Source: Escherichia coli (GTDB taxonomy: Bacteria; Pseudomonadota; Gammaproteobacteria; Enterobacterales; Enterobacteriaceae). Taken from it: a stretch of DNA of 64,000 nucleotides. The DNA lies in the NCBI RefSeq assembly GCF_003334785.1, contig NZ_QOWV01000002.1, one strand, 5' to 3'. The first letter of the stretch is position 1. Every line of letters begins with the position of its first letter. The position numbers were made by a program. Shown one piece after another: positions 15,001 through 18,000 of the stretch.

Positions 15001-18000
15001 CATCGCGAACTTTGAGATCTGCAAACTCTGTGGGTACAGGTTTAAAGGGCAGTCGTTGACCCAGAAATTTAAGGAAAAGTGGGCCACCGATCAGTGATGC
15101 CATCAGCCCAACCAGCAAACCGTAGACGATCACCGAACCGATATCTGCGCCCAGCTTATTGGCAACATATAAAGCAGCCGGATGTGGAGGAACCACGCAG
15201 TGCACTGCCATCAATGCGGTACATAGCGGAATGGCAAGCTTTAATAATGAGGTATTGGTTTTTTTGGCAATTGAAAAAGCCAGAGGAATCAATAGCACGA
15301 CGCCCACTTCAACAAACAGCGTGATGCCACAAATCAGGCCAACCAGCACCATAATGACATCAACTGAAAGCCAGCGGCAGCGTTGAAGTGTCAGACCAAT
15401 TCTTTCTGCGGCCCCGGATACTTCCATCATTTTTCCCAGTATCGTGCCAAGGCCGATAACCGCTGCGAGGAACCCCAGCGTTCCGCCAATTCCACTTTCA
15501 ATAGCATTTACCATATCCAGTGGCCCCATGCCCATCATCGTTCCCACGAAGAAGCTGGCCAGCAACAGCGCCAGAAACGGGTGGAATTTGAACTTCACGA
15601 TGGTCAGTACAATTAACACGATGCTGATAAGCAGCGTGCTCACAACCCAGATTTGAGAGTGCATATCTCACCTTCCCCTGTGATTAACCTGATGATATTG
15701 GACAAAAAAACAACGCAGGCTGACAAACGATAAAATTTGCCTTTCACATGAGGTAAATTGCATCAATGGAGTGATTTACATCTAAAAATGAAGGTGAATT
15801 GAGATATGGTTCACTTTAGCTCATCTCATAGCTGAAATTTTGCCGCTATTTTTTTACACTTAAGCGAAAAATGAGGTGATTATGGAACCCCTTCGTGAAA
15901 TAAGAAATCGGCTGCTTAACGGCTGGCAATTATCAAAAATGCATACTTTTGAAGTGGCTGCCAGGCATCAGTCCTTCGCCCTGGCGGCAGAGGAATTGTC
16001 GCTGAGCCCCAGTGCGGTAAGTCACCGTATCAATCAGCTGGAAGAAGAATTGGGCATTCAGTTGTTTGTTCGTTCCCATCGCAAAGTGGAATTAACGCAC
16101 GAGGGGAAACGTGTTTATTGGGCGCTAAAATCGTCGCTGGATACCCTGAACCAGGAAATTCTTGATATCAAAAATCAGGAGTTATCGGGAACGTTAACTC
16201 TGTATTCCCGGCCCTCTATCGCCCAATGCTGGTTGGTGCCCGCATTAGGTGACTTTACACGCCGGTATCCGTCTATTTCGCTCACCGTGCTCACTGGTAA
16301 TGACAACGTCAATCTGCAACGTGCCGGAATCGATTTGGCGATCTACTTTGATGATGCGCCGTCAGCGCAACTCACTCATCACTTTCTGATGGATGAAGAA
16401 ATCCTGCCAGTATGTAGCCCGGAATACGCTCAAAGACATGCTTTAACCAACACGGTAATTAACCTGTGTCACTGTACGTTGCTCCATGACAGACAGGCAT
16501 GGAGCAACGACTCCGGTACGGATGAATGGCATAGTTGGGCGCAACATTATGCGGTTAATTTGCCGACATCTTCTGGAATTGGCTTTGATCGTTCTGATTT
16601 AGCTGTTATTGCCGCGATGAATCATATTGGGGTGGCGATGGGAAGAAAACGCCTGGTACAAAAAAGGCTTGCCAGTGGTGAGCTCGTCGCGCCGTTTGGC
16701 GATATGACGGTGAAATGCCATCAGCATTATTACATCACCACATTACCGGGCAGGCAGTGGCCAAAAATTGAAGCGTTTATTATCTGGCTAAGAGAACAGG
16801 TAAAAACCACTTCATAATGAATAAAACCACGAGTTCCTGGTGTGCCTTATTCGGCCTGCTAGTTCGAATTTAATTTACGGTTTTTATGTGGTTTTAGGGA
16901 TAAACACAAGGATGGTGTCCCCTGCAGACATCTACTTGGAGTGGCAGGGGATTGATTAGAATGGTGTTTTTTAGATGTGAGAAATATTTTACCCGCTATT
17001 TTACCCATTAGCGCGGCTTAAGAGCTTATTTTTGAATTCACAATGGTCACGATATAACCATCTTGCGCGTCCGTGGATAACTTTGGCTTTTGGCAGGTCG
17101 CCGGACTTAATCCGGTCATAGATGAAGGTTTTACCGAAGCCAGTATCAGCCATGATGAATTTCAAATCAACCAGTGAATCAGGCTGTAGTTCGTGTTGCA
17201 TGAGTGCTATCTCCGAATAGGGAATCGAACCTGCAAATCAGGCAATAAAAAACCGCCATCAGGCGTTTTTGTGTTCTTTCAGTTCTTCAATTCGAATATT
17301 GGTTACGTCTGCATGCGCTATCTGCGCCCATATCATCCAGTGGTTATAGCAGTCGTTGATGTCCTCTGCTTCGATAACCCTGTCGAATGACTCTCCATTC
17401 CATTCACCTGTGACTCGGAAGTGCATTTATCATCTCCATAAAACAAAACTCGCCGTAGCGAGTTCAGATAAAAGAAATCCACGCGAGTGCGAGGATTGTT
17501 ATTCACCTTTTACGGCAAGTTGCAGGTTAGCCACGGTTAACCTCCAGTTGTGGTGCTGCCTCAAGAGCAGCCCTGTAACCAGCAGCATGACCGCGAAAGT
17601 TAGCAATCTCTGATAGCCACGCTTTAATCATGGCCTGAGTTGGTTCCTTCGGCACCATAACCCAACCATCCTGAGTTACCGGAGAGTTGCCATCCAGCGC
17701 GTTCAACTTGTAAGCCTGGCTTACAGGTTCGGCACTATGAAGCATGGCAGCGCGGCAGGCGTTCCAGCCTCTCACCTCTGCAATAGCGGCAACAGCATCG
17801 ACCGCGTACATTTTAAGAGGGTTAGGCATTGGTTTTTCTTCAGGTACTACTGGCACTGGAGGGGCGGCATAAACAGGAATAACGTCCGATTGATCTTTAT
17901 TGCTTTCATCCGTTAAAGCCCAGAATAATTTCCCGGCCGGATGTTTGAAAATATAAGCAACAGGCTCTGCTTCCAGTGATGCCAGCACGATACGCGCCAG

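What the first reader, a model, noticed from the sequence alone, without database searches (positions are those of the whole stretch)
17221..17236. Internal 16-nt copy of the argW T-arm inside the element
ggaatcgaacctgcaa at 17221..17236 is identical to 23463..23478 within argW, but the flanking bases do not continue the tRNA and no core repeat adjoins it. A 16-nt exact match is unlikely by chance in 64 kb. It may be a relic of an older or tandem integration at a tRNA site, or part of the ancestral attP that once carried more of the tRNA 3-prime half. It lies just upstream of the torI start.
Basis: seen in the sequence. Interest (0 to 1): 0.35.

Follow-up and report, generated by a model that had tools for sequence, protein, structure and literature searches.

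The report
tRNA T-arm copy upstream of torI
The 16-base copy of the argW tRNA T-arm inside this prophage is real and is a conserved part of the leader of the phage excisionase gene torI in many argW-integrating phages, so it is probably a regulatory site derived from the attachment site rather than a scar of an old integration.

Summary
GGAATCGAACCTGCAA occurs exactly at 17221-17236 and at 23463-23478 in argW. The argW copy starts on the last base of the 16-nt att core, so the internal copy equals tRNA positions ~47-62, the bases that abut the recombination core in attB.

It is not a local scar. The same 16-mer sits 19 nt upstream of torI in K-12 KplE1, in the phage genome records of Sf6 and HK620, and in every one of 124 matches in viral contigs. 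Its core, GTTCGATTCC(C), recurs at -28/-29 from the excisionase ATG in about half of the diverged TorI-family modules (Citrobacter, Pantoea, Edwardsiella, Erwinia and Salmonella phages). Mean pairwise identity there is 96%, against 50% at xis third codon positions.

It lies outside the 135-bp attR that suffices for excision in vitro. No contiguous "long attP" ancestor was found.

Best reading: an attB/tRNA-derived segment kept by selection as a cis-regulatory element of torI. My favoured mechanism (about 0.35) is a mimic of the attB B-arm half-site bound by the integrase. Rivals are a TorI operator (it contains GTTCG), an anti-Shine-Dalgarno hairpin, a neutral relic and a PI-type promoter.

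The same repeat is annotated as the att core in the CUS-3 GenBank record, which therefore omits torI.

The parts
17221..17236 (-). The 16-mer. On the minus (torI-sense) strand it reads TTGCAGGTTCGATTCC, identical to argW tRNA positions ~47-62 (end of variable loop, 5' T-stem, T-loop, first two bases of 3' T-stem).
   Evidence: identical in Sf6, HK620, CUS-3, K-12 and 124 matches in viral contigs
17220..17230 (-). Cross-genus conserved core of the motif, GTTCGATTCCC on the minus strand. GTTCG sits at -28/-29 from the xis ATG, about 5 nt upstream of the SD.
   Evidence: mean pairwise identity 0.964 in 10 lineages against 0.503 at xis third codon positions
17208..17214 (-). Shine-Dalgarno of torI (GGAGATA on the minus strand). 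A variable 5-nt spacer (17215-17219) separates it from the motif.
   Evidence: sequence; conserved in relatives
17001..17201 (-). torI (excisionase / RDF, 66 aa), 100% identical to HK620 HkaC and Sf6 gp18.
17247..17270 (-). Hairpin with a T-run on both strands (tL-type terminator, weakened in this window), 10 nt upstream of the 16-mer. Homology to HK022 (tL4) and lambda-type prophages begins here.
   Evidence: The simple terminator scan did not call it in this window.
17237..17246 (-). Linker ATTGCCTGAT. Together with the first TTGC of the 16-mer it forms TTGC-N5-TTGC, which the HK620 record annotates as a cII site within a 'phage integration' promoter.
   Evidence: HK620 annotation, positions mapped from its attP core; lambda-type TTGCGTGTAATTGC at the homologous place
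16912..16927 (-). attR copy of the 16-nt core (CTGCAGGGGACACCAT in tRNA sense), next to dsdC.
   Evidence: core sequence as published in PMC2951348
16986..17006 (-). Two direct ATTTTACCC repeats at the 3' end of torI. These are predicted IntS arm-type sites of the P arm, so torI is bracketed by arm-type sites at its 3' end and the T-arm motif at its 5' end.
   Evidence: sequence; same repeats in all relatives. Assignment as arm-type sites is inferred from similar repeats next to intS.
23448..23463 (-). attL copy of the core, forming the 3' end of argW.
23463..23478 (-). The argW copy of the 16-mer (T-arm). It is the predicted attB 'B' side, directly 5' of the identity block.
23449..23523 (-). 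argW, tRNA-Arg(CCU).
22130..23323 (-). intS integrase (the ORF as listed starts at an upstream GTG; the Sf6 and HK620 integrases are 385 aa).

Best explanation
The 16-mer is the E. coli-lineage form of a conserved cis element, with core GTTCGATTCC(C), at the upstream edge of the xis(torI)-attP-int recombination module of argW-integrating phages. It lies in the torI leader, after the tL-type hairpin and 5 nt before the Shine-Dalgarno. It reproduces the stretch of argW (T-stem and T-loop, positions 47-62; conserved core 53-62) that in attB directly abuts the block of attP/attB identity. By my reading of the attP inverted repeat (GATGTC / TGCAGGG / GACACC), that stretch is the attB 'B' core-type half-site. 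I take it to be attB/tRNA-derived sequence retained by selection to control torI expression. Favoured mechanism: the core-binding/catalytic domain of IntS recognises this isolated B-type half-site while its N-domain holds the arm-type repeats at the 3' end of torI. That would bracket or loop the 200-bp torI gene and keep excisionase low when integrase is present. Shown: identity to the tRNA, position, linkage to torI, cross-genus constraint, and location outside the attR fragment that suffices for excision in vitro. Inferred: tRNA origin, the B-site assignment, any protein binding, and the regulatory outcome. My probabilities: about 0.75 that this is a selected cis element acting on torI, and about 0.35 that IntS binding is the mechanism.
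For: Exact identity to argW positions ending at the core boundary. Always adjacent to torI while the other flank varies between at least two hairpin/gene contexts. Present in the Sf6 and HK620 phage genome records, in CUS-3 lysogens and in K-12. The same core is found at a fixed distance from the xis ATG in Midgardsormr38 (two tandem copies), Emek-like Salmonella phages, phiEt88, a MAG, Citrobacter, Pantoea, P. stewartii and Edwardsiella. Motif identity is 0.964, against 0.503 at xis third positions and 0.897 for the best 11-nt window in the xis CDS. Within the E. coli lineage the 16-mer is the least variable segment of the module. Motif-bearing lineages differ in their putative Xis sites (GTTCG-type versus GTAAC-type in phiEt88) and in arm-type repeats (GGGTAAAA versus GCGGGCATAA), but all share the argW-type core. 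What stays constant with the motif is therefore the target site. In most lineages the attP side of the core also keeps imperfect T-loop homology (ATTCGATGTA|TGCAGG).
Against: There are no binding data of any kind. About half of the TorI-family lineages lack the motif (Chronis, EhrS49, Tatumella, Arsenophonus, Yersinia, Serratia and others), so it is dispensable. Isolated core-type half-sites are usually weak integrase sites (general knowledge of lambda Int). The conserved base after the motif is C, not the T of the tRNA, which a pure B-site mimic does not explain. My placement of the overlap region and B site is inferred from sequence symmetry only. The conservation statistic is conditioned on lineages that have the motif. 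All retrievable family members target argW, so covariation with the target tRNA could not be tested.
Confidence: 0.4

Rival explanations
1. TorI operator: the motif is a binding site for the excisionase itself, giving autoregulation of torI.
For: It contains GGTTCG. The TorI sites I1-I5 on attL are built on GTTCG/GATCG/GTCCG, and mutating these pentamers abolishes TorI control of PintS (PMC2951348). Midgardsormr38 has two tandem copies, as in site blocks. TorI is already known to repress intS.
Against: In phiEt88 the repeats occupying the I-site positions read GATGTAAC/GCGTTAC, yet the leader motif is unchanged. Conservation extends 5-6 nt beyond GTTCG (ATTCCC), whereas the flanks of I1-I5 vary. 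There is a single site in this window, while attL sites act in blocks. Chronis and EhrS49 have GTTCG-type sites but no leader motif.
Confidence: 0.2
2. RNA-level element: AUUCC(C) pairs with the Shine-Dalgarno GGAG(A)U and GGUU pairs with AACC before the AUG, forming a hairpin that limits torI translation.
For: The same two-helix fold is predicted in 8 of 10 leaders. It is more stable than shuffles in Citrobacter (z -2.8), phiEt88 (-2.45), Pantoea BAV (-2.17) and the MAG (-1.57). The single Citrobacter substitution (C to U) repairs the one mismatch in the inner helix. The distance to the SD is fixed.
Against: This window's own lineage shows no excess stability (z +0.64), nor do Midgardsormr38, Edwardsiella or Emek. 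The consensus energy is only -4.1 kcal/mol with 0 compensatory pairs. Unpaired bases of the motif (CG) are as invariant as paired ones. Identity to the target tRNA would be a coincidence.
Confidence: 0.12
3. Neutral relic: an ancestral attP carried the tRNA from the T-arm to the 3' end, the P arm plus torI (292 nt) later separated the two parts, and the 16-mer simply survives.
For: Removing 17 221-minus-core spacing (the 292 nt between core and 16-mer) would regenerate a contiguous tRNA 3' segment, and the identity ends exactly at the core boundary. Lineages keep ragged, different extents of tRNA identity: E. coli 47-62; Pantoea BAV 49-64 with one mismatch. attP still has imperfect T-loop homology next to the core.
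Against: Conservation is far above the neutral yardsticks from the same loci, and the adjacent 5-nt spacer varies freely. The motif is either intact or wholly absent, never half-decayed. No contiguous form was found. Origin and present function are not exclusive: descent from the tRNA is compatible with the best explanation.
Confidence: 0.12
4. Spacer of a cII/C1-dependent PI-type promoter that expresses integrase without excisionase, as annotated in the HK620 and Sf6 records.
For: HK620 annotates a promoter at 1664-1702 and a cII site at 1689-1701 over this region, and Sf6 annotates 'pI'. Lambda-type prophages carry the true PI box TTGCGTGTAATTGC at the homologous position next to the same hairpin.
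Against: The box here is TTGC-N5-TTGC, not N6. The TTGC repeats are absent or altered in the other motif-bearing lineages, while the T-arm core is invariant. The sigma-70 scan finds no promoter in 16850-17650. A promoter spacer is not expected to be the most conserved segment.
Confidence: 0.07
5. Chance match of no significance.
For: Exact 16-mer repeats of some kind do occur in this window.
Against: The expected number of tRNA-to-element matches is about 2e-4. The boundary coincides with the core. The motif is conserved across genera.
Confidence: 0.01

Closest known systems
KplE1 / HK620 / Sf6 recombination module (intS - attP - torI; Ansaldi laboratory; PMC2951348, PMC3509656)
   Same: This window carries that module: the 16-nt core CTGCAGGGGACACCAT at both ends, intS next to argW, and torI at the far end with a protein 100% identical to HkaC and gp18.
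   Different: In the papers I could read, the described module comprises the core, IntS arm-type sites, five TorI sites on attL and IHF sites. The T-arm copy upstream of torI is not among them, and it lies outside the 135-bp attR used in vitro.
Lambda PI promoter with its cII box at the start of xis
   Same: Same position relative to the tL hairpin and the excisionase start. The E. coli lineage has TTGC...TTGC, and the HK620 and Sf6 records annotate a PI-like promoter here.
   Different: The spacing is N5, not N6. The boxes are not conserved in other lineages, while the T-arm core is. No promoter was detected by the scan.
tRNA 3' segments carried in phage attP sites (Campbell-type tRNA integration; sublocation classes of Williams 2002, from memory)
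   Same: Phage DNA carries sequence identical to the target tRNA, in the same orientation and order as in the tRNA.
   Different: This piece is separated from the crossover block by 292 nt that include a whole gene. It is not at a prophage junction and is not needed to rebuild the tRNA.
CUS-3 'attL/attR core' as annotated in GenBank CP000711
   Same: It is literally this 16-mer pair (argW T-arm and internal copy).
   Different: In CUS-3 lysogens, torI, the P arm and a core (with one G missing) lie beyond the annotated end. So the 16-mer is not the crossover site, and the annotation appears to be mistaken.
TorI (RDF) binding sites I1-I5 on attL
   Same: It shares the GTTCG pentamer.
   Different: It is a single site in this window, with a different and invariant 3' extension. 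It is unchanged in a lineage whose putative RDF sites differ.

Membership tests
att core (site of strand exchange) of the KplE1/HK620/Sf6 module | The sequence lies at the junction between prophage and host DNA, at both ends | tested here: not met
   Phage DNA lies on both sides of the internal copy (torI on one side, hairpin and ea-type ORF on the other). It is internal in the Sf6 and HK620 phage genome records. The junction repeat is at 16912-16927 and 23448-23463.
att core (site of strand exchange) of the KplE1/HK620/Sf6 module | Contained in the minimal substrates that recombine in vitro | tested here: not met
   The published attR substrate is 135 bp and ends at primer attR-IHF2 inside torI (about window 17005-17024), roughly 200 bp short of the 16-mer (PMC3509656).
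tRNA gene or tRNA pseudogene fragment from a second integration | tRNA homology continues beyond the repeat, or a second core or junction adjoins it | tested here: not met
   ARAGORN finds only argW. Flanks diverge immediately on both sides. The 16 nt left of it match the core at only 7 of 16 positions (my count).
Ancestral long attP (contiguous T-arm to 3' end in phage DNA) | Existence of relatives with core + T-arm contiguous next to the same hairpin, or of partial argW 3' halves in phage contigs | tested here: not met
   0 viral contigs match CCTGCAGGAATCGAACCTGCAAATCAGG. All 109 evaluable hits to GGTTCGATTCCTGCAGGGGACACCA are complete argW genes. Both scans were capped at 120 loci, so absence is not proven.
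TorI / RDF binding site | GTTCG-type pentamer | tested here: met
   The motif contains GGTTCG. The pentamers are defined in PMC2951348.
TorI / RDF binding site | Co-variation with the RDF sites of the same element, and arrangement in blocks | tested here: not met
   The phiEt88 P' arm repeats are GATGTAAC/GCGTTAC, but its leader motif is AGGTTCGATTCCC. There is a single copy in this window.
TorI / RDF binding site | Binding by TorI | not testable with these tools
   Needs EMSA or footprinting.
Integrase core-type half-site (attB B-arm mimic) | Sequence equals the bases flanking the overlap region in attB | tested here: met
   The conserved core corresponds to tRNA positions 53-62, ending where attP/attB identity begins. 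The position of the overlap region itself is inferred, not known.
Integrase core-type half-site (attB B-arm mimic) | Binding by IntS; co-variation with the target in elements that use other tRNAs | not testable with these tools
   All retrievable TorI-family modules with the xis-attP-int layout target argW. phi297 has a different layout.
cII-dependent PI-type promoter | TTGC-N6-TTGC flanking a -35, with a -10 at the proper distance | tested here: not met
   TTGC-N5-TTGC in this window. The boxes are absent or altered in other motif-bearing lineages. There were 0 sigma-70-like sites in 16850-17650.
SD-sequestering leader hairpin | Stability above background and compensatory changes | tested here: inconclusive
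   z = -1.6 to -2.8 in 4 of 10 leaders, but +0.64 in this window. 0 compensatory pairs.
Any curated RNA family (Rfam 15) | Match at gathering score | tested here: not met
   Only sub-threshold STnc130 (30.4 against 55 bits) and STnc420 (24.6 against 70 bits), driven by the hairpin.

The most novel reading that the evidence does not exclude
Argw-integrating phages of this family keep a perfect copy of the attB half-site (the tRNA T-loop arm) in the leader of their excisionase gene. The integrase would read the same sequence at its chromosomal target and at the gene that decides recombination direction. This would be an integrase-operated switch, or an intramolecular attB decoy, that ties target recognition to control of excision.
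Probability: 0.3. Interest if true: 0.7.

Novelty: new variant of a known kind. Interest (0 to 1): 0.45.

Why it matters
[quoted passage not shown] A 10-13-nt leader motif that is more conserved than the gene it precedes, and is identical to the attB arm, is a concrete handle on that control. It can be tested directly in E. coli K-12, which carries the same sequence. There is also a practical point. Because the repeat is as long as the 16-nt att core, it can mislead prophage boundary calls: the CUS-3 reference record appears to end on it and so lacks its excisionase and attR.

Tried and rejected
(1) Chance: rejected by shuffles and arithmetic.

(2) Local tandem-integration scar: rejected, because the 16-mer is in the Sf6 and HK620 phage genome records and is always linked to torI.

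(3) Search for a contiguous ancestor (core + T-arm + hairpin): 0 hits. Search for partial argW 3' halves in viral contigs: only complete tRNA genes.

(4) A scan for the motif next to an SD in viral contigs mostly returned ordinary tRNA genes. Only the Emek-like excisionase class was informative.

(5) RNA explanations: Rfam gave nothing at gathering score. The alignment fold was weak with no covariation, and shuffle z-scores were mixed.

(6) Promoter: none found by the consensus scan. The cII-box analogy holds only in the E. coli lineage.

(7) Covariation test with another tRNA target: Pseudomonas phi297 has a different gene layout and was dropped. All 20 genome-contig loci are argW-type or lack a recognisable site.

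(8) Papers that could have settled published knowledge were not held: Menouni 2013 PNAS and King 2007 J Bacteriol. Clark 2001, Casjens 2004 and Panis 2007 were not attempted, so 'not previously described' is only as far as I could read.

(9) A pseudo-att reading (B half-site + 7-nt spacer + GAGATA as a B'-like arm) was considered and dropped. The spacing varies from 5 to 8 nt and GGAGATA is simply the SD.
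Full report
OBSERVATION. GGAATCGAACCTGCAA is present exactly at 17221-17236 and at 23463-23478, in the same orientation. ARAGORN finds one tRNA in the window, argW (tRNA-Arg CCT), at 23449-23523 on the minus strand. The 16-nt att core of the KplE1/HK620/Sf6 module (CTGCAGGGGACACCAT in tRNA sense; PMC2951348) is at 23448-23463 and 16912-16927. These two copies bound a ~6.5-kb prophage remnant between dsdC and argW, with intS (22130-23323, minus) at one end and torI (17001-17201, minus) at the other. The argW copy of the 16-mer begins on the last base of the core. On the minus strand the internal copy therefore reads TTGCAGGTTCGATTCC, which is tRNA positions ~47-62, the bases that directly abut the core in attB. 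Shuffles give 0.04 expected matches with up to 2 mismatches. A tRNA-to-element 16-mer match is expected about 2e-4 times (my arithmetic). Exact 16-mers of any kind are less rare in this window, so the significance rests on the specific tRNA/prophage pairing and on the boundary coincidence. The internal copy lies 19 nt upstream of the torI ATG, 5 nt upstream of its SD (GGAGATA), and 10 nt downstream of a hairpin with T-runs on both strands.

IT IS PART OF THE PHAGE MODULE, NOT A LOCAL SCAR. BLAST of 16900-17560 against phage records shows three homology breakpoints. The torI/attP module shared with Sf6 and HK620 starts at the core. Lambdoid phages with other integrases (HK022 'tL4 terminator', Stx phages) start matching only at about 17233-17247. 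CUS-3 starts at exactly 17221. Alignment shows the 16-mer is identical in Sf6, HK620 and CUS-3 at the same place, and it is present in K-12 MG1655 KplE1. Every match with enough flanking sequence has the torI start on one side, while the other side falls into at least two unrelated hairpin/gene contexts. In E. coli, 568 of 5426 complete genomes have at least 80% of the 661-nt query. A scar of a strain-specific tandem integration is therefore excluded.

NOT PART OF THE MINIMAL RECOMBINATION SITE. The published in-vitro excision assay uses a 135-bp attR whose inner primer (attR-IHF2) lies in the 3' end of torI, at about window 17005-17024 (PMC3509656). The 16-mer is ~200 bp further in.

CONSERVATION ACROSS GENERA. 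tblastn with TorI and a scan of one genome per species with a Xis alignment gave diverged modules, all with the xis-attP-int order and an argW-type core. About half carry ..GGTTCGATTCC(C/T), with GTTCG at -28/-29 from the ATG and about 5 nt before the SD:
- Escherichia (the full 16-mer)
- a MAG and Citrobacter (CCAGGTTCGATTCCC; Citrobacter has one C-to-T change)
- Pantoea BAV 3049 (GCCGGTTCGATTCCTG, which is tRNA positions 49-64 with one mismatch)
- P. stewartii and Edwardsiella (ACAGGTTCGATTCCC)
- Erwinia phage Midgardsormr38 (two tandem copies)
- Emek-like Salmonella phages (AAG/AGG/CTG-GTTCGATTCCC)
- Erwinia phage phiEt88 (AGGTTCGATTCCC; Xis only 36-39% identical to TorI)
.

The others have nothing resembling it: Chronis, EhrS49, Tatumella, Arsenophonus, two Pantoea, Yersinia, Serratia, Izhakiella and Phytobacter. 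The state is bimodal, intact or absent. Among the 10 bearing lineages the 11-nt core has mean pairwise identity 0.964. In the same loci, xis third codon positions are at 0.503, first and second positions at 0.778, and the best 11-nt window of the xis CDS at 0.897. The 5-nt spacer to the SD varies freely. The caveat is that these lineages were chosen because they have the motif. Within the E. coli lineage, anchoring on torI rather than on the motif, the 16-mer has 2 of 16 variable sites and 0.12 minor haplotypes per site, against 0.95 for torI and 2.25 for the P arm. That is suggestive but not significant on its own.

WHAT IT COULD DO.

(a) Integrase core-type site. In attP an imperfect inverted repeat, GATGTC / TGCAGGG / GACACC (GRTGTM arms with a 7-nt spacer), suggests that the overlap region is tRNA positions 63-69. 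In most lineages the attP side reads ATTCGATGT(A/T)|TGCAGG, an imperfect T-loop. On that reading the attB B half-site is positions 54-62, almost exactly the conserved leader core (53-62). The bearing lineages differ in their putative Xis sites (GTTCG-type against GATGTAAC/GCGTTAC in phiEt88) and in arm-type repeats (GGGTAAAA against GCGGGCATAA). They share only the target. torI is bracketed by two arm-type repeats at its 3' end (16986-17006) and this motif at its 5' end, a geometry that a heterobivalent integrase could bridge. None of this is shown biochemically.

(b) TorI operator. TorI sites on attL are built on GTTCG/GATCG/GTCCG (PMC2951348), and the motif contains GGTTCG. However, the motif does not co-vary with the RDF sites in phiEt88, and the invariant ATTCCC extension is unexplained.

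(c) Anti-SD hairpin. AUUCC(C):GGAG(A)U plus GGUU:AACC is predicted in 8 of 10 leaders. It is more stable than shuffles in only four (z -1.6 to -2.8) and not in this window (z +0.64). The consensus energy is -4.1 kcal/mol with no compensatory pairs.

(d) PI-type promoter. HK620 and Sf6 annotate a promoter and cII site here, and lambda-type prophages have the true box TTGCGTGTAATTGC at the homologous position. But the box here is N5, it is not conserved where the T-arm core is, and no sigma-70 site is detected.

(e) Neutral relic of a longer ancestral attP. This is compatible with the geometry (removing the 292 nt between core and 16-mer restores a contiguous tRNA 3' segment) and with the ragged lineage-specific extensions of tRNA identity. 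It is contradicted as a sole explanation by the level of constraint, and no contiguous form was found. Descent from the tRNA and present function are not exclusive.

COMPARISON WITH WHAT IS KNOWN. The module is well studied. In the papers I could read (PMC2951348, PMC3509656, PMC8787464), the described components are the 16/17-nt core, IntS arm-type sites, five TorI sites on attL and IHF sites. [quoted passage not shown] The same DNA has been annotated in three ways in GenBank: as a PI-like promoter (HK620, Sf6) and as the att core (CUS-3). I could not read Clark 2001, Casjens 2004, King 2007, Panis 2007 or Menouni 2013, so prior mention of the T-arm identity cannot be excluded.

VERDICT. I read it as a selected, attB/tRNA-derived cis element of the excisionase leader (about 0.75). 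The favoured but unproven mechanism is an integrase B-arm mimic (about 0.35). It is a new variant within a known system, of moderate interest, and directly testable in K-12.

Noticed in passing
L001 / L005 (CUS-3, CP000711) and L008:980-1400 (E. coli NU14): The CUS-3 GenBank record starts inside argW at TTGCAGGTTCGATTCC and ends at the internal copy, and both ends are annotated as 'att core'. In a CUS-3 lysogen, torI, the P arm and a core lacking one G (CTGCAGGGACACCAT) follow before dsdC. The reference record therefore appears to omit the excisionase and attR. The one-base deletion in that core may explain why the 16-mer was taken as the flanking repeat.
   Followed up: partly
window 17151-17278 (+) and 17243-17298 (-): Sub-threshold Rfam matches to the Salmonella sRNA candidates STnc130 (30.4 bits, gathering 55) and STnc420 (24.6 bits, gathering 70). 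The similarity is mostly the bidirectional hairpin at 17253-17265. A plus-strand RNA here would be antisense to the torI start and to the 16-mer. No promoter was found for it.
   Followed up: partly
L264:2500-2600 (Arsenophonus nasoniae): A TorI-family excisionase (78% identical) is preceded by a lambda PI-like box, TTGCGTGTAATTG, instead of the T-arm motif. This shows that the excisionase leader is a hot spot for mosaic exchange.
   Followed up: no
window 16859-17008 (-): A 49-aa ORF runs across the attR core into host DNA. It corresponds to hkaB / Sf6 gene 17, which spans attP in the phage. In the prophage its 3' part is replaced by host sequence.
   Followed up: no
window 18349-18369: ATGGTGTAACTTGCAGCGATA is 71% identical to the attR core plus flank (repeat family D1) and lies inside ORF 18165-18455 (minus strand). 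It is probably chance.
   Followed up: no
window 42469-42484: GGAAGCGGACCTGCAA is a 2-mismatch copy of the 16-mer far outside the element. It is probably chance.
   Followed up: no
window 18556-21936: The remnant carries a 462-aa ORF on the plus strand (18556-19944; I guessed tailspike-related but did not check it) and a 653-aa ORF (19975-21936, minus) that looks like an O-antigen acetylase by its position next to intS, as oac is in Sf6. That would make this a serotype-converting prophage remnant distinct from K-12 KplE1.
   Followed up: no
L132:2101-2200 (Salmonella phage Emek) and L170: An ORF starting MESHSLTLDEACAFLKIS... (an HTH-like start) runs through the T-arm motif in another frame and overlaps the excisionase start. 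It may be the remains of a different excisionase-type gene.
   Followed up: no
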